A stretch of 64,000 nucleotides of DNA from Candidatus Uhrbacteria bacterium (GCA_018664485.1 JABJOE010000009.1:4108-68107); one strand, 5' to 3'; shown: positions 17,839-64,000, numbered from the stretch's first letter. The notes: generated by a model from the sequence alone, not told the origin. A program made the numbers and translations.

Positions 17839-18686
17839 AGTTAATTGACTCACACTGTCACGTTCATTTTCAGGCTTACAAAGACGACATGGATGAGGTC
17901 GTTAAGCGCAGTTTAGACGCCGGCGTTGGGATGATTACGGTAGGTACACAGTCATCTACTAGTAAGACAGCTATTGAACTTGCTGAGAAATACGAGAATG
18001 TCTGGGCTACTATTGGACTACACCCAAACCACCTACATAAGCAGGAATTTTTTGATGAAGACGAACTTCCGCCGGAAGAGAAAGCAACAGGAAAAATTAA
18101 AACACGAGCAGAGGCTTTTGACCCGGAGTATTACAGAACGCTCATTGACCACCCTAAGGTTGTTGCAATCGGTGAATTTGGACTGGATTATTATCGGGTA
18201 CCCGATCATCTTGATCGCGATCAAGTTATTGCAGACCAAGAGGCAAGTTGCGCACAGCAGCTCTCTTTTGCTAGTGAGTTTGATAAACCAGTCGTCATAC
18301 ATTGCCGTGATGCACACGAGGCGCAGTACGAACTACTAAAGGCTGAGATAGAAAAGGGGGGACTCACAAAAAGAGGGGTGATACATTCGTTCACCGGGTC
18401 AGTTGAGGATGCTCGCCGGTACGAAGAGCTTGGCTTTATTTTGGGACTAAACGGTATTTTAACCTTTTCAAAAGAACTTCAGGCTGTTGTAAAAGATATT
18501 CCGCTTGAGCAAATTGTCGTTGAGACCGACGCACCATATCTCACACCTCCACCTTACCGGGGTAAAAGAAATGAACCGGCGTATGTTAAGTTTATCGCAA
18601 AGCTTATTGCAGAACTTCACCATGTCTCTTTTGACGAGGTTGCAGACCTCACAACAAACACAACAAAAACTCTTTTTTCTATATAA
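17835..18686 (+). CDS. tatD: TatD-family metal-dependent hydrolase/DNase
   Basis: LIDSHCHV N-terminal metal-binding motif. GLHP, EIGLD and DAP motifs. Start taken at MKLIDSH. Confidence 0.8.
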   Translation: MKLIDSHCHVHFQAYKDDMDEVVKRSLDAGVGMITVGTQSSTSKTAIELAEKYENVWATIGLHPNHLHKQEFFDEDELPPEEKATGKIKTRAEAFDPEYYRTLIDHPKVVAIGEFGLDYYRVPDHLDRDQVIADQEASCAQQLSFASEFDKPVVIHCRDAHEAQYELLKAEIEKGGLTKRGVIHSFTGSVEDARRYEELGFILGLNGILTFSKELQAVVKDIPLEQIVVETDAPYLTPPPYRGKRNEPAYVKFIAKLIAELHHVSFDEVADLTTNTTKTLFSI

Positions 18687-18706
18687 AACAGAAAGGGGTA
18701 TAACCC

Positions 18707-18735
18707 TTGACTTTTCCTACCAATCTTGATATTTT
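18707..18735 (+). promoter_or_regulatory. strong sigma70-like promoter, copy 1 (TTGACT-17-TATTTT), preceded by the near-palindrome GGGGTATAACCC
   Basis: One of three near-identical promoter modules (18707, 18963, 19257). Confidence 0.5.
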
Positions 18736-18741
18736 TCCGCC

Positions 18742-18950
18742 ATGCAGGTTTCTGGCGGTGCTCTTCGGCCTGAACAGCCGAAGGTTACTCGTTAGAGGGC
18801 ATTGTGTTGAGTGCGCCGTAGTCGTTACGGTTTTGCTCGACTTTAGCTTGATCCTGGAGGGTTTCTCGCTAAAGCAATGTGTCGGGCTTCCGGCCCAACC
18901 TGTAGACCTCCGCCGTCGTTCCTCTCGGGATCGGCGGTGTTTACCTTTAG
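18742..18950 (+). ncRNA. candidate structured ncRNA 1 (~210 nt, identity unknown)
   Basis: No plausible ORF. G+C elevated. At least 6 consecutive hairpins (ccgcca/tggcgg, cttcggc/gccgaag, ccgta/tacgg, ctttagc/gctaaag, gggc/gccc, ccgccg/cggcgg). Ends in a hairpin plus a U-rich tail. Own promoter. Confidence 0.3.
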
Positions 18951-18962
18951 GGCGTATACCCT

Positions 18963-18991
18963 TGACTTCTTCCGGAAGCATTGCTATCTTT
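18963..18991 (+). promoter_or_regulatory. strong sigma70-like promoter, copy 2 (TTGACT-17-TATCTT), preceded by GGGCGTATACCC
   Basis: Near-identical to the promoter at 18707. Confidence 0.5.
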
Positions 18992-18997
18992 TTGTCG

Positions 18998-19205
18998 GAG
19001 CAGATTTTTGATAGTGTCACATAATGACGTCTAGTGTCATTAGAAGCACTACTCGAAGGATATGCAGGCACCCAGTCTTGTCACAGGGTGCGAGCCGCGA
19101 TTGAGGTCAGGGATCTCGAATGCAGCTCATATGCCGGGTAACTCCCATCTGTCTCAGCTTCACCGTCGCTCCTTCTTGGGGCGGCGGTGTACACTTTTCT
19201 ATAAA
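18998..19205 (+). ncRNA. candidate structured ncRNA 2 (~200 nt, identity unknown; contains GAGGUCAGG...GCAGC, faintly reminiscent of SRP RNA domain IV)
   Basis: No ORF. Multiple hairpins. 3' hairpin caccgtcgc/gcggcggtg followed by cacttttct, similar to the 3' end of candidate RNA 1. Confidence 0.3.
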
Positions 19206-19256
19206 ATCTTGTACAACCTCAGCCACCTTTACAATTTCGTATAAAATCTACGCCCA

Positions 19257-19285
19257 TTGACTTTTATGCATATTCAACATATGAT
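19257..19285 (+). promoter_or_regulatory. atp operon promoter (TTGACT-17-TATGAT), third copy of the same promoter module
   Basis: Located 30 nt upstream of the first atp operon gene. Confidence 0.55.
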
Positions 19286-19315
19286 TTTTTCGCATTTTCA
19301 AGGGTTATTCTACCT

Positions 19316-19576
19316 ATGAACAATCAAAATCAAACAGAAAAAAAGAATGACCGAGCTCAATATGGGCTAGCCATCCGAATTGCTGGTGATTTTGGTGTAA
19401 GTATTGCAGTCCCAGCTCTAATCGCGGCTTATCTTGGCCAAAAATTAGATGAGAGACTAGGGACCCAACCTATAGCAATGATCATATTGCTAATACTAGC
19501 GATGGCTTTAACAGCCGTGATCATAGTCCGAAAGGCAGAAACTTATGCAAAAGAATACAACGAACTCAATAACTGA
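19316..19576 (+). CDS. ATP synthase protein I-like small membrane protein (AtpI/AtpZ/AtpR type)
   Basis: 86 aa, two TM helices, immediately upstream of atpB. Confidence 0.55.
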   Translation: MNNQNQTEKKNDRAQYGLAIRIAGDFGVSIAVPALIAAYLGQKLDERLGTQPIAMIILLILAMALTAVIIVRKAETYAKEYNELNN

Positions 19577-27353: not shown

Positions 27354-27463
27354 CGGCACTGAGCACAACTCCGACGACCGCCGCCCCAAGTCTTGGGTAG
27401 CGGTCGTTTTGCATCTGTACAAAAAATGATATTTTCTCTAGAATCTTTATAAATACTCAATAT

Positions 27464-27590
27464 CTACAACCTACTAGCTACAAGCTATTTTCTACAACCT
27501 AGTACCTAACACCTAAGACCTACCAGCTATTTACTACAAGCTACAACCTAGTACCTAATCCCTACCAGCTAATTTCTATAACCTAACACC
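27464..27590 (+). repeat. degenerate tandem repeat / minisatellite built from CTACAA(C/G)CTA, GTACCTAA, CCTACCAGCTAWTT units
   Basis: Read directly. Low-complexity CT/A-rich repeats immediately upstream of 27592. A 17-mer, cctagtacctaacacct, recurs with 1 mismatch at 38577-38593. Confidence 0.6.
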
Positions 27591-27591
27591 T

Positions 27592-28005
27592 ATGTCACAT
27601 ACCTGCTCCGCAGCGCTTGTTCGTTGCATGGATTTCCGACTCGAGTCTGCCATTGAGGAATACATGGCAAATAACAAACTCACAAACGACACAGACGTCA
27701 TATCAATTGCCGGTGCTGCAAAAGATGTAAACGATCAGAGCATGGGTGGAGCAGTCGCAGGTCAGCTCGCACTTTCAAAGAAATTGCACGACATCAACAC
27801 CATAGTTCTAATGAACCACACAGACTGCGGAGGCTACGGTGGACGATCAGCATTTGAAAGTCGAGAAGCCGAATGGCAGAACCATGTAGACGCTCTAAAC
27901 GGAGCAGCGGCTATACTAAAGGCAACATATCCAGACGTCACAATAAAAAAAACAATAGCTGATATTAACGACGACGGATCAATAGAAATCAAAGAAGTGG
28001 CTTAA
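27592..28005 (+). CDS. beta-carbonic-anhydrase-like zinc-binding protein (short, 137 aa)
   Basis: RCMDFR (CxDxR), VISIAGAA, HTDCGG (HxxCG) with beta-CA-like spacing. Identification tentative. Confidence 0.45.
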   Translation: MSHTCSAALVRCMDFRLESAIEEYMANNKLTNDTDVISIAGAAKDVNDQSMGGAVAGQLALSKKLHDINTIVLMNHTDCGGYGGRSAFESREAEWQNHVDALNGAAAILKATYPDVTIKKTIADINDDGSIEIKEVA

Positions 28006-38668: not shown

Positions 38669-40174
38669 ATGATTGATGAAGAACGAGTTCGTCGCGATCG
38701 CCTGCAAGCAATCCGCGACACCAAAGTAAATCCATACCCAGCCCAATCTCACCGCACTCATCTCGCAGAAGAGGTGCTGTCAACGTTTGAGGACCTTGAA
38801 GCATCCCAAAATGAGGTTACACTTGCTGGACGTATTCGTGCTCTTCGAAAGCATGGAGGAATTGCTTTTGTTGTTCTTCAAGATGCATCTTCTGAAATTC
38901 AGGTCGTTCTACACAAAGACACGATGGGTGAGGATGCCTACAATACTTTTCACACACAGGCAGACCTAGGTGACTTTTATGAGTTCAGCGGCCCTGTAAT
39001 GGTCACAAAGAAAGGTCAGCAGTCACTCAGTGCTAAAACAACTCGTATTCTCACAAAGGCGCTACTTCCACTTCCTGAAAAATTCCACGGTCTCAACGAC
39101 ATTGAAACTCGATACAGACAACGTTATCTCGACCTTCTTGCAAATCCAGAGGTAATTGCATCTGCAAAATCTCGCGCAAAAATGGTTGCGGCAATGCGTG
39201 GACTTCTAGAACAAGAATCTTTCCTTGAAGTTGAAACTCCAATTTTACAACCAATCCCAGGTGGAGCTAATGCAAAACCTTTCATTACACACCACGAAGC
39301 TCTACACGCAGATTTCTACCTTCGTATCGCACCCGAGCTTTACCTTAAGCGTTTGGTCGTTGGTGGATTTGAAAAAGTATACGAGTTCGCACGATGTTTC
39401 CGTAACGAAGGAATCAGCCCGCAGCACAACCCAGAATTCACACAGATCGAAGCTTATTGGGCTTACGCAACAATTGAGATGCTCATGGATCACCTTGAGC
39501 GACTGCTGCGCGCAGCCTGCAAAGCAGTAACTGGTGGAAAAGAATCTGTAGAACTTGAAGGACACACACTTTCCTTCGTAGATATTCCACGACAAACATT
39601 CCAAAGTATTATTCTAGAACACAGTGGAATCGATTTGGATGAAGTTACAGAAGAGGACGATTTACGAAAAATAATGGACGACAAAGGTATTCAAACTAAA
39701 GGAGTAGTCGGATACGGGGAACTGGTTGACTATCTATATAAACACGGAGCCCGACCGAAAATCATTGGTCCAGTTTTTGTTACCGACTATCCAGCTGCAA
39801 TGAAACCGCTTGCGAAACGTCGCGACAACAATCCTCACTACAGCGCCTCCGCTCAGATGGTTATTCTTGGGATGGAAATGTTCAACTCGTTTAATGAGTT
39901 AAACGATCCAATCGAACAGGAAGATCGTTTCCGTGAGCAAGAAGGTTTGCGAGAGCGGGGAAGTGAAGACGGAATGCGTATTGATGACGACTACGTTACT
40001 GCTCTTAAACACGGAATGCCACCAACTGCCGGATACGGAATTGGAATCGATCGGTTGGCAGCGCTTTTGACACAATCTACAAATATTAAAGAAGTTATTT
40101 TGTTCCCAACTCTAAAACCACGTAGCAACGATGCCGGTGGAGAGTCGGAATCTGAGAGCCCATCTGGGGAATAG
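38669..40174 (+). CDS. lysS: lysyl-tRNA synthetase (class II)
   Basis: N-terminal OB anticodon-binding domain. Class II motifs 1-3 (e.g. FRNEG, GIGIDRL). Confidence 0.9.
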   Translation: MIDEERVRRDRLQAIRDTKVNPYPAQSHRTHLAEEVLSTFEDLEASQNEVTLAGRIRALRKHGGIAFVVLQDASSEIQVVLHKDTMGEDAYNTFHTQADLGDFYEFSGPVMVTKKGQQSLSAKTTRILTKALLPLPEKFHGLNDIETRYRQRYLDLLANPEVIASAKSRAKMVAAMRGLLEQESFLEVETPILQPIPGGANAKPFITHHEALHADFYLRIAPELYLKRLVVGGFEKVYEFARCFRNEGISPQHNPEFTQIEAYWAYATIEMLMDHLERLLRAACKAVTGGKESVELEGHTLSFVDIPRQTFQSIILEHSGIDLDEVTEEDDLRKIMDDKGIQTKGVVGYGELVDYLYKHGARPKIIGPVFVTDYPAAMKPLAKRRDNNPHYSASAQMVILGMEMFNSFNELNDPIEQEDRFREQEGLRERGSEDGMRIDDDYVTALKHGMPPTAGYGIGIDRLAALLTQSTNIKEVILFPTLKPRSNDAGGESESESPSGE

Positions 40175-40341
40175 GTATATTATTCTTAAGATGGGCTAAC
40201 ACCAAGCATATGCCCTGAAGTGAATGTTTGATAGAAATTTTCTAAAACTCATTTCCTCAGGCCAAAAAATACTTCTATGAATATGAAATCCATTTACAAA
40301 AATATCTGTCTGAAAGATAGATCGAACATCTACTTCAGGGT

Positions 40342-40752
40342 ATGAAATCAGTAGCTGTATTTGGAGCATTTGACATTCTACACCCTGGTCACAAAGCCTT
40401 TCTTAATCAGGCAGCGGCGCTCGGAGATAAATTAACCGTCTACCTTGCGCTTGATGAGATAATTGTCGAGCTTAAGGGCCGCGAACCAGTCCAAGAGTTC
40501 AAAGTGCGTAAGGCAGCACTTGAGGCGCTTACAGACGTTGATGAAGTTCAAAAAGGGGACCATGTACTTGGTAATTATCGAGGCATTTCAATTTCGCAGC
40601 CAGATGCCATCGTTCTCGGATACGATCAGGGAGAACTCGAGAAAGATCTCAAGCGATGGATGAAAAAGTTTCGTATTGAAATTCCAATTATACACACAGA
40701 ATCTTTTCACCCTGAAACATATAAAACCAGCAAACTCAGAGAAAATATATGA
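40342..40752 (+). CDS. cytidylyltransferase-like nucleotidyltransferase (HxGH family; RibL/TagD/PPAT-like)
   Basis: AVFGAFDILHPGH nucleotidyltransferase signature. 136 aa. Confidence 0.6.
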   Translation: MKSVAVFGAFDILHPGHKAFLNQAAALGDKLTVYLALDEIIVELKGREPVQEFKVRKAALEALTDVDEVQKGDHVLGNYRGISISQPDAIVLGYDQGELEKDLKRWMKKFRIEIPIIHTESFHPETYKTSKLRENI

Positions 40753-49528: not shown

Positions 49529-49660
49529 CCCTCTGAGCACAATGTATCTGCTCCTCGCCCTCCTCTCGCCTCGTCGAGCTGGAGGGTTGACTGCATCATA
49601 TTTTAATCGATTATTTAACGCATCCATTGCTTGACAATTCAGCTAATGAGTGCTAAAAAG

Positions 49661-50176
49661 ATGCGCACCCCAGGAGATATCATCACCCACGACGCAGAAC
49701 TTCTTTTGCTTACCGGAACCATCCTCAGCCTCATTGGAGTAATCGCATTCTTGATCTGCATCATTTTGCACATCTTGTATCTTGATCCCGAACTCAAGCT
49801 TATTGACAGAGAGGTCCTTAAGCCGATCCAGGAAGCGGCTGATGCGAGTGACATCCGCTTTGCCATTGAAAGCCTCGATGCAGTACGTGAGTGGATGACG
49901 CTCAACGGGTTCAGCGAGAGTTTTGGAGGCCTCTTCAAGCACCTTAATGGTCGGAGAGACTTCCTTGCCCATAAGACGATGGCTCAACCGCTTTATCCAC
50001 TCAAGATTCTGGCTGTCAACAAAAGCTCAATCGAGAGCCACATGAACTGGCTGCTCGTTGTAAGAATCTCTCTACATCGCGTGCGTGTACCTGGCTTCAT
50101 CTGCCTATTCAATTTGATCATACTTGGCCTCACTACGTTCCCAGGCATCTTCTTCATTGTTGAAGCCTTGCGATAA
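49661..50176 (+). CDS. hypothetical membrane protein, tandem paralog 2 (MRTPGD... family)
   Basis: Same conserved start context, promoter (TTGACA 49631-49636) and 3' hairpin (ccctcc..ctcgcctcgtcgagctggaggg) as paralog 1. Confidence 0.5.
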   Translation: MRTPGDIITHDAELLLLTGTILSLIGVIAFLICIILHILYLDPELKLIDREVLKPIQEAADASDIRFAIESLDAVREWMTLNGFSESFGGLFKHLNGRRDFLAHKTMAQPLYPLKILAVNKSSIESHMNWLLVVRISLHRVRVPGFICLFNLIILGLTTFPGIFFIVEALR

Positions 50177-50270
50177 AGATGGGCCGATTCGCCAAACAGA
50201 CGTCCAGACACACCTCGCCCTCCACCTCGCCTCGTCGAGCTGGAGGGTTGACTGCATCTGGACAAGTTTC

Positions 50271-50312
50271 TTGACAAACCACTAATTAGCACTCTACAAT
50301 GGAGACTGCTAA
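50271..50312 (+). promoter_or_regulatory. clpB promoter (TTGACA-17-TACAAT) overlapped by a CIRCE-type inverted repeat TTAGCACTC-N9-GACTGCTAA (HrcA operator)
   Basis: CIRCE consensus TTAGCACTC-N9-GAGTGCTAA matched with 1 mismatch at 50286-50312. Confidence 0.65.
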
Positions 50313-50564
50313 GTGGCGCATCTCAACTCTGAAGCTAAGATATTCTACGAATCCATGACAGAGATGTCTTGCGAATCTACGGCATAGGTGTCCTGAAGAA
50401 CAATTTACCTTACAAAATCATACAGCTCACTAAAATGAGCGTAGGAATTTGGATGAGATATCGTTGAAAACTGAGTACTGAAATGAGGCGTACTAAAAAG
50501 TACGGCGAATAAGGCACAGAAGTTTGAAACGATAGATCGCCAAATAGCAAACGAACTGCATATT

Positions 50565-54330: not shown

Positions 54331-54373
54331 TCACGCCGCTATGAGAATCATTCCACTCTCATAACCTCGCGAT
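54331..54373 (-). promoter_or_regulatory. conserved 43-nt 5' element containing the palindrome TATGAGA-N10-TCTCATA, copy 1
   Basis: Identical to 55015-55057. Lies about 75 nt upstream of the lipoprotein gene start. Confidence 0.55.
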
Positions 54374-54971: not shown

Positions 54972-55014
54972 GGTCTATCCGTATGCTGGGGGTGTGGGAA
55001 GAAGCGTACGTTTT

Positions 55015-55057
55015 CACGCCGCTATGAGAATCATTCCACTCTCATAACCTCGCGATA
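55015..55057 (-). promoter_or_regulatory. conserved 43-nt palindrome-containing 5' element, copy 2
   Basis: Exact duplicate of 54331-54373. About 40 nt upstream of the 54971 start. Confidence 0.55.
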
Positions 55058-55375
55058 TACAGAAAATTCGATCCTGTATAGAGAGATCGAACATATACAG
55101 GGCATGCCCTGGGACCATTTCGTTAGTCCAGAAGTTTCTTTCTCACATTCAGATCTATGTAGATTGAATCTGTGAATGAATCTCCTTACGTCTCTCTCTT
55201 CACTTGTATCTTACACGAGTCATAATAGCACAAAAATGACGTCTTGTCAAGCCCAAACCGTAGTTTATTAGCCAATCTTAGCCACTTATTTTGTTCATTT
55301 TAATCTTACAAAACATCCAAAAACACCTCTGGAAAACCTCATTTCAGCTATAGAAAATATGTTATACTTCCCACT

Positions 55376-61275: not shown

Positions 61276-63159
61276 TTAGCTAGACAAGTCGATCCCCTGC
61301 TTAACTGCAATACTTCTGAAAGTTGCAGAGATAGGCCAAAGATCCTCAAACTTGTCAGCAATAGCCTCAACCTGCGATTCACCTGCACCCAGGCCCTTAA
61401 CAGGCCTAAGTACAACGAATTTGTCGCAGCGTTTCCGAACGGTCGAGAAGTCATGGGCGATAAAGACCGCACTCATCAACGTCGTCAATTCCTTGTCGAG
61501 GCCGACGTACAATTCTTCTTCCGTATGACTATCGAGATGACATGTGGCCTCATCGGCAATGAAGACTGTTGGAGACTTCATTACAGCCGCAGCGATCATC
61601 ACACGTTGTTGCTGACCGCCAGAAAGCTTAATGCCCCCTTCCCCAACTTCCGTTTTCAGACCATCACGTGCGAAGTCAATCTGAAGATTCTCCATCAAGG
61701 CATGAATCCTCGCATCATCCGTCTGCTCAGCTACTTTTGCCGGCAATCCGTAAGTGAGGTTGTAGCGTAGAGTTCCGTCAAAAACTGCAGGCTCCTGCGG
61801 CACATGGCCAAGTCGGTTAAGCCATGAAGAAAGCTGAATATCGCGAAGGTCATGGCCGTTCACACGAATCACACCACTACTTGGGTCCATCTCACGGAGT
61901 AACAGCTTAGTAAGGGTAGACTTTCCAGACCCTGACTTTCCAAGCAATGCAACCTTTCTACCAGGTTCAATAGTGAAGCTGACATCTCGAAGGACTTCGA
62001 CGTCTCCGTAGGAATACGAAACCGAATCAAAATCAATATGAATCGGTTCGTCGTCACTAAGCACTACCGGACTATCGACGTCCTTTATGTCTGACTCGAT
62101 CTCCAGTGCCGCTTGCAGAGATGCAATTGATGGAAAGTTCCAGTTCAGTTGATGTTCAACCTCACTAAGCCTCCATAGATAGTCACGAATAAGTCCAGAC
62201 CACGTGAAGATCGGATACAGAATACCGATTTCCCAATGACCGTTGTAGACCATCCATGCACCATATATTAGAACTATCACAACAAAGATCGTTGTGATGA
62301 ATCCACGAGCGACTCCATGAGTCCCGTAACGAACCCAGAATGGGAAGTCGATACCGAGAATATCCGTGAACCACTGTGACATCTTTGCCAATTCTTCATC
62401 TTCTTTCGCGCTTGCCTTAACTCGGCGAATCTGTTTCCACCTTTCACGCATGTAGCGATTGAAGGCACGGAATTTGGCATCAAGAGGCGTACAGACCTCA
62501 ATGATTATCCGGTTCAGATACAATGACCAAATCATGTGTATCACCACCGACACCGTCATCACCGCTCCGGCAACGGGACTGATAATCCAGAGGAAGACCA
62601 TGCTGAGAACGAATCCCAGAACAACCTCGACTCCGTTGTACATGAGGATCGATTGAGACTCAGATACTTTTCCGAGTCCTTTCTCCATGTTCGATGAGCT
62701 GAGCAAATCATGATGTTCGGCATGTTGACCAAGTGATTTCGAGAAGAATAGCTCCGTCACACGATGTTGGCGACGAGACATATTGAATCCGAAAACACGC
62801 TCTCGGCACACTACACGAAGTACGGAAACTCCGCGTCTCGCAATCTCCGCCATGACATAGGCTGCGATACCCGTGACAATAAGTCTCAAGTCATGCCCCA
62901 CCAATCCGTCAAACACATACCTGATGAACCAGTCCATGCTGAACTGGAAGGTCATAATGATGACGAGTGCCACCACTAGGCGCTTCACCCACTTGCGGGC
63001 AGGTGCATCGATGAGCTCATCCCACACCCAGCGGTACACACCGATGCTTTCACCGATGGTACTGAAGTACTCACGCCAGTTTTTTGCGATCTTACGATCT
63101 GCTTCCGGGTCGTAGATAGGCATATCTGCTCCTTTCTTGTTGAAGTAGTTTTCTGACAA
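61276..63159 (-). CDS. ABC exporter, fused permease-ATPase (MsbA/ABCB type)
   Basis: 6 TM helices followed by GKSGSGKST Walker A, LSGGQQQR signature and a Walker B. Confidence 0.85.
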   Translation of the reverse strand: MSENYFNKKGADMPIYDPEADRKIAKNWREYFSTIGESIGVYRWVWDELIDAPARKWVKRLVVALVIIMTFQFSMDWFIRYVFDGLVGHDLRLIVTGIAAYVMAEIARRGVSVLRVVCRERVFGFNMSRRQHRVTELFFSKSLGQHAEHHDLLSSSNMEKGLGKVSESQSILMYNGVEVVLGFVLSMVFLWIISPVAGAVMTVSVVIHMIWSLYLNRIIIEVCTPLDAKFRAFNRYMRERWKQIRRVKASAKEDEELAKMSQWFTDILGIDFPFWVRYGTHGVARGFITTIFVVIVLIYGAWMVYNGHWEIGILYPIFTWSGLIRDYLWRLSEVEHQLNWNFPSIASLQAALEIESDIKDVDSPVVLSDDEPIHIDFDSVSYSYGDVEVLRDVSFTIEPGRKVALLGKSGSGKSTLTKLLLREMDPSSGVIRVNGHDLRDIQLSSWLNRLGHVPQEPAVFDGTLRYNLTYGLPAKVAEQTDDARIHALMENLQIDFARDGLKTEVGEGGIKLSGGQQQRVMIAAAVMKSPTVFIADEATCHLDSHTEEELYVGLDKELTTLMSAVFIAHDFSTVRKRCDKFVVLRPVKGLGAGESQVEAIADKFEDLWPISATFRSIAVKQGIDLSS

Positions 63160-63246
63160 CTGTTAGCTGTATTTGATGAGATGTTGGTTCATCGCGAACC
63201 CCACAGATCACTAATACAGCAGCAGAGTTGAAAACTGGTGAATTAA

Positions 63247-63276
63247 GAGACCTCCCGCTTATTAGCGGGAGGTCTC
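63247..63276 (-). terminator. perfect 12-bp hairpin gagacctcccgc-ttatta-gcgggaggtctc, terminator of the upstream minus-strand gene
   Basis: Inverted repeat read directly, followed on the minus strand by a T-containing tract. Confidence 0.55.
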
Positions 63277-63455
63277 AACCGTCAAATGTTGTTAGCATTT
63301 AAAAATTATTCATCTCACGCTTATGCGAAAAAAGGTTAGCCTGTGCATCGCCGTCAAAAACATTGGCAACACAAAGAACTGGTACGGCGTTTACCGCTCC
63401 GAAGTTAGGTTTTTTGTCCTGCCTAATGATAATCATAGAAATAATTCGGTCGCAA

Positions 63456-64000
63456 TTATTTTGCGAGATCAGAAGTTACCACAGCTTTAATTTGCCTGTC
63501 AAGTATTCGACTTCCACGCAGTCTTCCTTCAATAACCTTTCCCCAACCCCGCGTGTCTAGAAACGGCAAAACGAACAACATCCACATAACTCCAATTGGA
63601 TGGTTCAAGTAAGGAGAAAATGTATGAGCTACAAACAAAGCAAATACACTACTTGCGAGTCCAATTACAAGCCATGATTGACTGTGTTTTGAAGCGTGAT
63701 AACGAGCGGATAGTACTAAAATGGCAAAATATACTGCAAAGGCAATAATTCCCAAGAGTCCCATCTTTAACCAAATATCATGCCAACCCCATTCAAATCG
63801 GTATGTTGTGTATTCCCCACCGGTCTCATCAATAATACGTGGATCTGAAGATTCATACGTAATAGTAGCCCCGAACCCTTGCCCAACCAGAGGACTTTGC
63901 GAGATAGACTGCATCAAAGGGTCCAAAAGCGCCCAACGACTTACTACAGCCTCACCACGGCCTGTCTGTGAAGATGTCTCGTAAAAAGATGCATCTGTTA
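63456..64000 (-). CDS. O-antigen ligase/polymerase-like membrane protein, C-terminal part (5' end beyond the window)
   Basis: Reading frame stays open to the window edge. GQGFG ... HDIWLKMGLLG resembles the Wzy_C/WaaL conserved loop. Confidence 0.45.
   Translation of the reverse strand, partial: TDASFYETSSQTGRGEAVVSRWALLDPLMQSISQSPLVGQGFGATITYESSDPRIIDETGGEYTTYRFEWGWHDIWLKMGLLGIIAFAVYFAILVLSARYHASKHSQSWLVIGLASSVFALFVAHTFSPYLNHPIGVMWMLFVLPFLDTRGWGKVIEGRLRGSRILDRQIKAVVTSDLAK

What the first reader, a model, noticed from the sequence alone, without database searches (positions are those of the whole stretch)
18690..19290. Two ~200-nt hairpin-rich RNA candidates, each behind a copy of the strong atp-operon promoter module
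The 630-bp gap between tatD and the atp operon has no credible ORF but contains three copies of one promoter (TTGACT, 17 nt, TAT-type -10). Copies 1 and 2 additionally carry an upstream near-palindrome GGG(G/C)TATA(A/C)CCC. Behind copies 1 and 2 lie G+C-enriched stretches of about 200 nt, each made of successive perfect hairpins and ending in a similar GC hairpin (ccgccg...cggcggtg / caccgtcgc...gcggcggtg) plus a U-rich tail. Copy 3 drives atpI-like/atpB. This arrangement suggests two abundant, independently transcribed small RNAs co-regulated with ATP synthase. They could be highly divergent 6S, SRP (RNA 2 contains GAGGUCAGG...GCAGC), tmRNA or RNase P fragments, or an undescribed RNA family. 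I could not match either to a known consensus by eye.
Basis: seen in the sequence. Interest (0 to 1): 0.6.

Follow-up and report, generated by a model that had tools for sequence, protein, structure and literature searches.

The report
Two paralogous orphan structured RNA genes
The spacer between tatD and the ATP-synthase operon of this uncultivated Patescibacteria (Uhrbacteria-like) genome holds a head-to-tail duplicated 255-bp unit, each copy with its own promoter-like and terminator-like signals around a roughly 200-nt RNA that folds into the same four-way junction, matches no known RNA family and is absent from the nearest relatives.

Summary
The 629-bp tatD-atpI gap has no credible ORF and three TTGACT-17-TATxxT promoter-like sites. 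It also has two G+C-enriched stretches that fold far better than shuffles (z -4.5 and -5.5, + strand).

The two stretches are paralogues: a 255-bp unit (hairpin, promoter, RNA, GC hairpin) duplicated in tandem. A covariance model of RNA1 alone finds RNA2 over its full length (E about 2e-5). The shared helices carry 10-11 compensatory double changes. The two independently predicted folds are far more alike than shuffles (0 of 300).

Rfam gives nothing, so 6S, SRP, tmRNA, RNase P and tRNA are all rejected. I found no homologue in 0.59 Mb from 89 Patescibacteria atp loci, in phages or in plasmids. Six relatives with 69-85% AtpB identity have an empty spacer. Three others hold unrelated structured RNAs or a tRNA operon there.

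The third promoter is the ancestral atp promoter. I found no convincing antiterminator, so a riboswitch or leader role is not favoured.

My best reading is two lineage-specific, independently transcribed stable structured RNAs of unknown function. Expression, abundance and co-regulation with atp are untested. Interest is modest.

The parts
18694..18708 (+). Near-palindrome AGGGGTATAACCCTT that abuts and overlaps the -35 of promoter 1. It probably doubles as the tatD terminator hairpin.
   Evidence: (flagged terminator-like on both strands). A hairpin abuts the -35 in the same way in L008 and L217.
18707..18735 (+). Promoter 1: TTGACT, 17 nt, TATTTT, with TG at 18727-18728 (extended -10).
   Evidence: Consensus match only.
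18742..18948 (+). RNA1 (about 207 nt; ends inferred). P1 18743-18750 with 18897-18904; P2 18751-18796; P3 (stem plus two inner hairpins) 18797-18882; P4 18884-18896; linker 18905-18910; GC hairpin 18911-18939; interrupted U tract 18940-18948.
   Evidence: MFE -87.6, z -4.54; model R1; pair counts.
18949..18963 (+). Near-palindrome AGGGCGTATACCCTT abutting the -35 of promoter 2. It is the duplicated copy of 18694-18708.
   Evidence: units 18694-18948 and 18949-19203 are both 255 nt.
18962..18990 (+). Promoter 2: TTGACT, 17 nt, TATCTT, with TG before the -10.
18997..19202 (+). RNA2 (about 206 nt; ends inferred). P1 18998-19005 with 19147-19155; P2 19006-19058; P3 region 19059-19135 (optional base helix AUAUG 19060-19064 with CAUAU 19128-19132; inner hairpins 19068-19091 and 19092-19128); P4 19136-19146; linker 19156-19160; GC hairpin 19161-19189; tail 19190-19202.
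   Evidence: MFE -84.4, z -5.50; R1 hit, 25.5 bits, E 2.2e-5, full length; RNA1-like P3 costs only 2.4 kcal/mol.
19257..19285 (+). Promoter 3: TTGACT, 17 nt, TATGAT. This is the ancestral atp-operon promoter. It is followed by the conserved leader TTTTCGCATTTTCAAGG and the atpI-like start at 19316.
   Evidence: alignment with the atp promoters of L007, L008, L091, L092, L093, L215 and L217.
19316..19576 (+). atpI-like gene (86 aa), the first gene of the atp operon. It is context, not part of the RNAs.
   Evidence: PF09527, E 1.7e-10; gene calls on public contigs.

Best explanation
The gap holds two tandem paralogous genes for small structured non-coding RNAs of an undescribed, lineage-restricted family.

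Shown by computation: a 255-bp unit was duplicated head to tail. Each unit consists of a hairpin abutting the -35, an extended -10 sigma-70-type promoter, an RNA body and a GC-rich 3' hairpin. The predicted 5' end of each RNA falls exactly at the closing helix P1. P1 closes a four-way junction formed by P2 (a long hairpin), P3 (a stem carrying two hairpins) and P4 (a short hairpin). A 5-6-nt linker and the 3' hairpin follow.

Inferred: each unit is transcribed on its own and mostly ends at its own hairpin. The atp operon is driven by the third, ancestral promoter.

Inferred with low confidence: the RNAs are almost fully paired. Between the two copies the junction helices are kept while the peripheral hairpins have diverged freely. 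There is no conserved single-stranded seed and no antiterminator. I therefore think a stable protein-binding or structural RNA is more likely than a seed-pairing regulator or an atp leader.

The spacer seems to be a slot for independently transcribed stable-RNA genes in this clade.
For: Folding: both RNAs fold well on the + strand (z -4.5 and -5.5, 0 of 200 shuffles as good), and better than on the - strand. G+C is enriched by about 10 points over the flanks.

Duplication: the whole-unit alignment scores z 8.6 against shuffles, with both units exactly 255 nt. The promoter and terminal-hairpin repeats are spaced 255 and 250 nt apart.

Shared structure: a covariance model built from RNA1 alone finds RNA2 end to end (25.5 bits; E 2.2e-5 in 325 kb of search space) and nothing else. 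On that alignment 95.9% of cells pair, against 34-43% when partners are slid. Ten pairs changed on both sides, against 0-2 when slid. RNAalifold on the same alignment predicts 46 shared pairs, 11 of them compensatory.

Independent check: the tree-edit distance between the two separately predicted MFE folds is 87, against 165 +/- 21 for dinucleotide shuffles of RNA2 (0 of 300 as low).

Signals: the TSS positions expected from the -10 elements coincide with the first base of P1 in both units.

Not coding: no Pfam hit and no called gene in the gap.

Atp promoter: the third promoter is orthologous to the atp promoter across relatives.

Same spacer elsewhere: L217 has a hairpin-abutted promoter, tRNA-Cys, a tRNA-like gene and a terminator, also about 255 nt. 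L008 has one roughly 255-nt structured unit (z -4.1). L093 has structured elements with z -6.6 and -4.6.

No switch: blocking the 3' arm of the terminal hairpin leaves the RNA1 domain unchanged and gives only a 3.8 kcal/mol alternative in RNA2.
Against: - There is no expression evidence of any kind. Promoters, start sites and 3' ends are consensus-based inferences.
- The U tracts after the terminal hairpins are interrupted, and the terminator scan did not call them. Read-through is therefore possible.
- No homologue was found outside this organism.
- Six relatives with 69-85% AtpB identity have an empty spacer, so the RNAs are dispensable on short evolutionary scales.
- Four public contigs of the organism are 100% identical across the spacer, so there is no population variation to test.
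- Covariation rests on only two sequences. The alignment was fitted to the structure, and two unrelated hairpins aligned on each other would also count as 'compensatory'.
- The roughly 130-nt middle of the two units is not alignable by sequence (z -0.27).
- RNA1 is not exceptional in a window-wide GC-corrected MFE scan.
- The functional class is a guess.
Confidence: 0.55

Rival explanations
1. Cis-acting leaders or attenuators of the atp operon. Promoters 1 and 2 add transcription that is largely stopped at the two hairpins. Regulated read-through, by a ligand, a protein or the transcription rate acting on the four-way junctions, would then tune ATP-synthase expression on top of promoter 3.
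For: The units share strand and orientation with atp and lie immediately upstream of it. A multi-branch domain closed by P1, followed within 5-6 nt by a terminator-like hairpin, is the classical layout of a riboswitch aptamer plus expression platform. The U tracts are imperfect, so partial read-through is plausible. Structured elements recur upstream of the atp promoter in L008 and L093, where the upstream gene differs.
Against: No antiterminator exists for RNA1 and only a weak one for RNA2. A full consensus promoter, orthologous to the atp promoter of relatives, lies downstream of both units. The presumed 'aptamers' share no conserved core sequence with each other or with L008 and L093. Most relatives do without any such element. 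No riboswitch family matches.
Confidence: 0.15
2. Non-functional or selfish DNA. A recently inserted or duplicated promoter-terminator cassette may surround decaying sequence, for example a degraded tRNA operon like that of L217, foreign higher-G+C DNA, or a small non-autonomous mobile element. Its hairpins would then be leftovers and not a selected RNA fold.
For: Presence varies among close relatives: 0, 1 or 2 units. G+C is about 10 points above the genome. The middle of the units is unalignable. Short direct repeats that include the last tatD codons flank the block in the window (about 18669-18690 and 19190-19209) and in L008 (2376-2391 and 2683-2698). The RNA ends resemble the T arm and 3' end of the L217 tRNA-like gene (seen by eye).
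Against: Both copies keep the same architecture although their sequences have diverged, with compensatory changes and a highly significant similarity of independently predicted folds. Both keep intact promoter geometry. No other copy exists in the 64-kb window or in 0.59 Mb of related loci, and nothing matches in phages, plasmids or viral contigs. The right-hand 'direct repeat' is also present upstream of the atp promoter in relatives that lack units (L091, L007), so it is not a clean target-site duplication.
Confidence: 0.22
3. Highly divergent members of a housekeeping RNA family (6S, SRP, tmRNA, RNase P) or intron-containing or expanded tRNAs.
For: The size of about 200 nt, the strong promoters and the G+C enrichment fit such RNAs. 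The string GAGGUCAGG...GCAGC recalls SRP domain IV. Other Patescibacteria carry tRNA genes in this spacer, and intron-containing tRNA genes missed by standard tools are reported in Patescibacteria (PMC13011429, abstract seen).
Against: No Rfam family reaches its gathering score in the whole window, and none of these families appears even at E<=10 in a 1-kb search. ARAGORN finds no tRNA or tmRNA, even when introns of up to 300 nt are allowed. Only a reduced-threshold run gives one implausible minus-strand hit. The predicted folds are branched four-way junctions, not the 6S rod with a central bubble. A housekeeping RNA would not be missing from the same locus without a trace in relatives, nor be unalignable at 85% AtpB identity. 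The units are too short for a tRNA plus a group I intron.
Confidence: 0.03
4. Small protein-coding genes, including type I toxin-like peptides.
For: Several ORFs of 35-130 aa overlap the units. RNA1 begins with AUG at the predicted start site, which would give a 17-codon leaderless frame (read from the sequence). Tandem duplication and patchy distribution are typical of type I toxin loci (general knowledge).
Against: No ORF has a Pfam hit. None was called on three public contigs. The long ORFs run through promoters and terminal hairpins. No frame is shared between the two units, and none of the peptides is hydrophobic (read from the translations).
Confidence: 0.03

Closest known systems
Tandem paralogous bacterial sRNA genes such as OmrA/OmrB (E. 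coli) or PrrF1/PrrF2 (Pseudomonas); recalled from general knowledge, not tested here
   Same: Two adjacent same-strand genes, each with its own promoter and terminator, arose by duplication. The 5' and 3' ends are conserved and the middle has diverged.
   Different: Those RNAs are about 80-120 nt with an accessible conserved seed and depend on Hfq. RNA1 and RNA2 are about 200 nt and almost fully paired. They form four-way junctions whose conserved 5' end is buried in P1. There is no sequence or Rfam relationship.
Stable RNA-polymerase-binding RNAs: 6S RNA (RF00013) and mycobacterial Ms1 (PMC4191392, abstract seen)
   Same: Size class (about 180-300 nt), high predicted stability, G+C enrichment and a plausible strong promoter. 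Some genomes carry two paralogues (general knowledge, not tested here).
   Different: There is no 6S hit even at E<=10. The predicted fold is a branched junction, not a rod with a central bubble. The RNAs are not conserved in relatives.
Transcription-terminating riboswitches (aptamer closed by P1, followed by a terminator)
   Same: A multi-helix junction is closed by P1, followed after 5-6 nt by a GC-rich hairpin, upstream of and on the same strand as an operon.
   Different: There is no antiterminator, no conserved ligand-binding core and no family match. A complete promoter lies between the units and the operon. The units are absent from most relatives.
tRNA operon in the same spacer of relative L217 (tRNA-Cys plus a tRNA-like gene with a 3-nt anticodon loop)
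   Same: Same genomic slot and same cassette logic: a hairpin abutting the -35, a promoter, about 160 nt of stable RNA, then a terminator. The cassette length is the same, about 255 nt.
   Different: RNA1 and RNA2 are not tRNAs. They form one large four-way junction without tRNA linker lengths or D- and T-loop signatures.

Membership tests
6S RNA (RF00013) | Score at or above the Rfam gathering threshold | tested here: not met
   No hit at gathering in the window and none at E<=10 in 18500-19500.
6S RNA (RF00013) | Rod-like fold with a large central bubble | tested here: not met
   The MFE and centroid folds of both RNAs are branched four-way junctions. This is a prediction only.
Bacterial SRP RNA (RF00169 / RF01854) | Domain IV (helix 8) with conserved internal loops and a GNRA loop; score at or above gathering | tested here: not met
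   No hit. GAGGUCAGG...GCAGC lies in a plain hairpin with an AGG loop.
tmRNA (RF00023) | tRNA-like domain plus tag reading frame | tested here: not met
   ARAGORN tmRNA search negative, also at a reduced threshold. Rfam negative.
RNase P RNA (RF00010 / RF00011) | Conserved P4 and CR-I to CR-V core; score at or above gathering | tested here: not met
   No hit. Each unit is also about half the usual length.
tRNA, including intron-containing tRNA | Cloverleaf with D- and T-loop signatures, detected by ARAGORN or the Rfam tRNA model | tested here: not met
   No tRNA in the window. With introns allowed there is still none; one minus-strand hit appears only at an 80% threshold.
Riboswitch with terminator expression platform | Junction closed by P1 directly upstream of a terminator hairpin | tested here: met
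   The match is in topology only.
Riboswitch with terminator expression platform | Mutually exclusive antiterminator pairing | tested here: not met
   With the 3' arm blocked, the RNA1 fold is unchanged. RNA2 gains only 3.8 kcal/mol from a 5-bp alternative.
Riboswitch with terminator expression platform | Aptamer core conserved across taxa | tested here: not met
   No homologue in 89 related loci. The unit middles are unalignable.
Independent sRNA gene (sigma-70 promoter plus intrinsic terminator) | -35 and -10 hexamers with 16-18 nt spacing | tested here: met
   9 of 12 matches plus TG for promoters 1 and 2; 10 of 12 for promoter 3. Consensus match only.
Independent sRNA gene (sigma-70 promoter plus intrinsic terminator) | GC-rich hairpin followed by a U tract | tested here: inconclusive
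   Stable 12-bp hairpins are predicted, but the U tracts are interrupted and the scan did not call them.
Independent sRNA gene (sigma-70 promoter plus intrinsic terminator) | A discrete transcript is detected | not testable with these tools
   No transcriptome data are accessible.
Conserved structured RNA family (Rfam-style evidence) | Helices supported by covariation across homologues | tested here: inconclusive
   Only two paralogues are available. They show 10-11 compensatory pairs and 95.9% pairing, and their folds are significantly similar. However, n = 2 and the alignment was fitted to the model.
MITE-like or other non-autonomous mobile element | Multiple dispersed copies and clean target-site duplications | tested here: not met
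   No other copy in the window or related loci. The flanking repeat is also present at sites without units.

The most novel reading that the evidence does not exclude
RNA1 and RNA2, the L008 unit and the L093 four-way junction could be members of one fast-evolving, clade-specific class of junction RNAs. Such RNAs would be repeatedly born or replaced in a 'stable-RNA slot' just upstream of the ATP-synthase promoter in Uhrbacteria-like Patescibacteria. They might derive from the tRNA genes that occupy this slot in other lineages, and might act as a new ribonucleoprotein component or as regulators tied to ATP-synthase expression.
Probability: 0.1. Interest if true: 0.65.

Novelty: new member of a known kind. 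Interest (0 to 1): 0.36.

Why it matters
Little appears to be published on non-coding RNAs of Patescibacteria beyond rRNA, tRNA and introns; four literature searches here found nothing relevant. These organisms have tiny genomes with little spare DNA, so 500 bp kept as two paralogous, compensatorily maintained folds is a reasonable lead for a new RNA.

The practical value is limited. The family is so far confined to one organism, has no partner protein or target, and cannot be tested without transcriptomes. The more general point may be more useful: the spacer upstream of the atp promoter acts as a variable slot for stable-RNA genes across this clade. That can be checked by anyone with the genomes.

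Tried and rejected
1. Known RNA families: Rfam on the whole window at gathering, and on 1 kb at E<=10, gave nothing usable.
2. tRNA and tmRNA: ARAGORN, also with introns allowed and at reduced thresholds, gave nothing credible.
3. Sequence homologues: blastn (word size 7) and nhmmer against 90 loci plus the window found only identical copies from the same organism. Phages, plasmids and viral contigs gave nothing.
4. Structure-aware homologues: models R1 and R2 found nothing beyond RNA1 and RNA2 in 0.59 Mb, even with filters off on the best candidate loci.
5. Metagenome scan: the pattern CCGTCGNTCCTN{6,10}CGGCGGTG was too loose.
6. Population variation: four public contigs are 100% identical over 641 nt.
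7. Coding potential: no Pfam hit for five gap ORFs.
8. Antiterminator search: negative for RNA1 and weak for RNA2.
9. Trans targets: the longest complementary matches elsewhere in the window are 12-14 nt. That is at chance level by my rough estimate for the 12-mer, or just another terminator stem for the 14-mer.
10. Target-site-duplication idea: the right-hand repeat is part of the ancestral atp upstream region in relatives without units, so it was not pursued.
11. Hairpin-plus-TTGAC as a genome-wide motif: not enriched (4 of 75 and 1 of 55 TTGAC sites, against 50 of 2000 random positions).
12. Literature: four full-text searches found no description of such RNAs in Patescibacteria.

Full report
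CONTEXT. The window comes from an uncultivated Patescibacteria genome. The closest named AtpB relatives are 'Patescibacteria group' and 'Candidatus Uhrbacteria' MAGs. The local gene order is metG, cvpA-like, tatD (ends 18686), a 629-bp gap, an atpI-like gene (19316-19576, PF09527), atpB and the rest of the atp operon. Identical copies of the locus occur on several public metagenome contigs.

- Three promoter-like sites with identical geometry are present: TTGACT, 17 nt, TATTTT / TATCTT / TATGAT at 18707, 18962 and 19257. The first two have a TG extended -10. Such matches are not rare in general. What is notable is that the three share CC(C/A)TTGACTT(T/C)T and sit on one strand at 255- and 295-nt spacing.
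- Near-palindromes abut the first two -35 boxes.
- The two bodies have 0.53-0.58 G+C against about 0.45 for the window.
- They fold with z -4.5 and -5.5 on the + strand, and less well on the - strand.
- Both end in similar GC hairpins, 71% identical over 41 nt. The U tracts are interrupted and the terminator scan did not call them.
- In a window-wide GC-corrected scan, RNA2 is among the ten best of 2554 windows. RNA1 is not in the top 25.
- The ORFs in the gap have no Pfam hit and were not called on public contigs.

WHAT IT IS: A DUPLICATED UNIT.
Units 18694-18948 and 18949-19203 are both 255 nt. They align with z 8.6 against shuffles. The signal comes from the first 60 nt or so (hairpin, promoter, 5' strand of P1) and the last 65 nt or so (P4, 3' strand of P1, linker, terminal hairpin). 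The middle 130 nt or so is not alignable by sequence (z -0.27).

The folds nevertheless correspond.
- A covariance model built from RNA1 alone finds RNA2 end to end at 25.5 bits, E 2.2e-5 in 325 kb of search space, and finds nothing else.
- On the resulting alignment the shared helices are P1, both parts of P2, the base of P3, P4 and the terminal hairpin. They pair in 95.9% of cells, against 34-43% when partners are slid. Ten pairs changed on both sides, against 0-2 when slid.
- RNAalifold on the same alignment predicts 46 common pairs, 11 of them compensatory.
- That alignment is fitted to the model, so I added an alignment-free check. The tree-edit distance between the two separately predicted MFE structures is 87, against 165 +/- 21 for dinucleotide shuffles of RNA2 (0 of 300 as low).
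- The RNA1-like P3 base helix costs RNA2 only 2.4 kcal/mol relative to its MFE.

The common architecture is as follows. The transcript starts at P1. P1 closes a four-way junction of P2 (long hairpin), P3 (stem with two hairpins) and P4 (short hairpin). A 5-6-nt linker and a 12-bp GC hairpin follow.

KNOWN FAMILIES ARE EXCLUDED. Rfam 15 gives no match at gathering anywhere in the 64 kb. At E<=10 in a 1-kb search the only hit is a 14-bit chance match on the minus strand. ARAGORN finds no tRNA or tmRNA, even with introns allowed.

RELATIVES. I retrieved the atp locus from 80 GTDB species representatives and from the contigs of the closest AtpB homologues. No sequence or structure homologue of RNA1 or RNA2 exists in this 0.59 Mb.

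State of the spacer upstream of atp in the closest relatives:
- Empty or under 110 nt: L007 (85% AtpB identity), L012 and L091 (72%), L214 and L216 (77-78%), L219 (69%).
- L008 (86%): one roughly 255-nt unit of unrelated sequence. It has the same layout (hairpin abutting a TTGAC box, multi-branch domain closed by a 9-bp stem, 3-nt linker, GC hairpin and U tract; z -4.1) and a CCGUCG..UCC motif in the hairpin arm like RNA1 and RNA2.
- L093 (72%): a 125-nt four-way junction (z -6.6) and a second structured element with a terminator (z -4.6) upstream of the atp promoter. Here the upstream gene was not identified; its fragment has no Pfam entry on record.
- L217 (69%): a hairpin-abutted TTGACA-17-TATATT promoter driving tRNA-Cys plus a tRNA-like gene with a 3-nt anticodon loop, then a terminator. 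This cassette is also about 255 nt.
- More distant Patescibacteria: tRNA-Thr(CGU) upstream of atp.

The third promoter and its leader align with the atp promoters of seven relatives. It is therefore the ancestral atp promoter, and units 1 and 2 lie upstream of it. I read the spacer as a variable slot for independently transcribed stable-RNA genes. This supports taking the promoter and hairpin signals of units 1 and 2 at face value.

MECHANISM.
Shown: duplication, a shared fold, and the absence of any known family.
Inferred: independent transcription from promoters 1 and 2, ending at the GC hairpins.

I tested the riboswitch or attenuator alternative that the layout suggests. Blocking the 3' arm of the hairpin does not change the RNA1 fold at all, and offers RNA2 only a 5-bp alternative worth 3.8 kcal/mol. 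A full promoter also separates the units from atp. I therefore rank that reading second.

A search for trans targets in the window gave only chance-level complementarity or another terminator stem.

Between the paralogues the junction helices are kept and the peripheral hairpins are free. No conserved single-stranded segment exists. My best guess is a stable protein-binding or structural RNA. This is a guess.

The main rival is that the units are dispensable, recently acquired or decaying DNA. Their patchy distribution, raised G+C and flanking short repeats fit that view. The maintained common fold and intact promoters argue against it. The right-hand repeat also occurs at sites without units.

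LIMITS.
- There is no expression data.
- Only two sequences are available for covariation.
- The organism's population is clonal at this locus.
- My single metagenome pattern scan was wasted on a pattern that was too loose.

VERDICT. This is a genuine and reasonably well supported pair of paralogous, orphan structured RNA candidates. It is a new family of a known kind, a lineage-specific bacterial small RNA. It is not a divergent housekeeping RNA and is probably not an atp riboswitch. The interest is modest.

Noticed in passing
whole window 1-64000: Not a single Rfam family at gathering score and no tRNA in 64 kb. Several other intergenic spots fold unusually well in the GC-corrected scan, for example 63101-63350 (+), 55001-55200 (-), 40151-40350 (+) and 50151-50400 (-).
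   Followed up: partly
window 49565-49597 and 50226-50258: A perfect 33-nt direct repeat, CTCGCCTCGTCGAGCTGGAGGGTTGACTGCATC (a hairpin directly followed by TTGACT), flanks the ORF at 49631-50176. It looks like another duplicated hairpin-plus-promoter-like module.
   Followed up: partly
window 54331-54373 and 55014-55056: A perfect 43-nt direct repeat, TCACGCCGCTATGAGAATCATTCCACTCTCATAACCTCGCGAT, at 683-nt spacing. It contains an inverted repeat, GAGAATCATTCCACTCTC.
   Followed up: no
window 27459-27592: An intergenic tandem array (period 42, 2.7 copies, 79% matches; sub-periods of 7 and 14) of CTACAAC / CTACCAGCT-type units lies after a terminator at 27373-27408.
   Followed up: no
window 63241-63270: A perfect 13-bp palindromic hairpin, GAGACCTCCCGCTTATTAGCGGGAGGTCTC, lies in the gap between two minus-strand ORFs (61276-63159 and 63456-63998). 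It is the strongest fold signal in the window.
   Followed up: no
window 18669-18690 vs 19190-19209; L008 2376-2391 vs 2683-2698: Short direct repeats that include the last tatD codons flank the inserted unit or units: ACTCTTTTTTCTATATAAAAC vs ACACTTTTCTATAAAATC in the window, and GCTTTTCCAAATATAG vs GCTTTTCCAAAAAACG in L008. The right-hand copy also exists upstream of the atp promoter in relatives without units, so this is probably not a target-site duplication. It could mediate gain or loss of units.
   Followed up: partly
window 18743-18750, 18897-18925, 18998-19005, 19147-19175 vs L217 1869-1898: The ends of RNA1 and RNA2 (GCAG(G/A)UUU ... A(C/U)CUGU ... CCGUCG(U/C)UCC) resemble the T arm plus 3' end of the L217 tRNA-like gene (GCAGGUUUAACCCCUGCCGUCGGCUCCA), which sits in the same spacer. 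This could hint at a tRNA-derived origin or be chance. It was seen by eye and not tested statistically.
   Followed up: no
L217 1828-1895: A tRNA-like gene scores 54 bits on the Rfam tRNA model but has only a 3-nt 'anticodon loop' (CCUGC-CGG-GCAGG). ARAGORN misses it. It lies next to tRNA-Cys(GCA) under one promoter.
   Followed up: partly
L217 about 2040-2150: Between the tRNA terminator and the atp promoter there are four successive short hairpins. Their loops share an A/U-rich motif (AAUAUAAA, AAUAUAAA, AGUAUUAAC, CUUAUAAA), reminiscent of protein-sponge RNAs with repeated loop motifs (read from the sequence).
   Followed up: no
L093 464-588 and 796-925: Two strongly structured elements lie upstream of the atp promoter of a relative with 72% AtpB identity: a 125-nt four-way junction closed by a 12-bp stem (z -6.6) and a domain plus terminator (z -4.6). 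Neither has an Rfam match.
   Followed up: partly
L020, L026, L031, L034, L037, L039, L047: tRNA-Thr(CGU) lies upstream of the atp operon in seven more distant Patescibacteria lineages, about 350-780 nt upstream in five and farther (about 0.9 and 1.6 kb) in L047 and L039. Four of them also carry tRNA-Gly(CCC) further upstream. L037 additionally carries tRNA fragments and a run of N.
   Followed up: partly
window 18700-18710 vs 19298-19308: An 11-nt perfect inverted match, ATAACCCTTGA / TCAAGGGTTAT, links the palindrome and -35 of promoter 1 with the ribosome-binding region of atpI. It may be a shared operator half-site or chance (pair I2).
   Followed up: no
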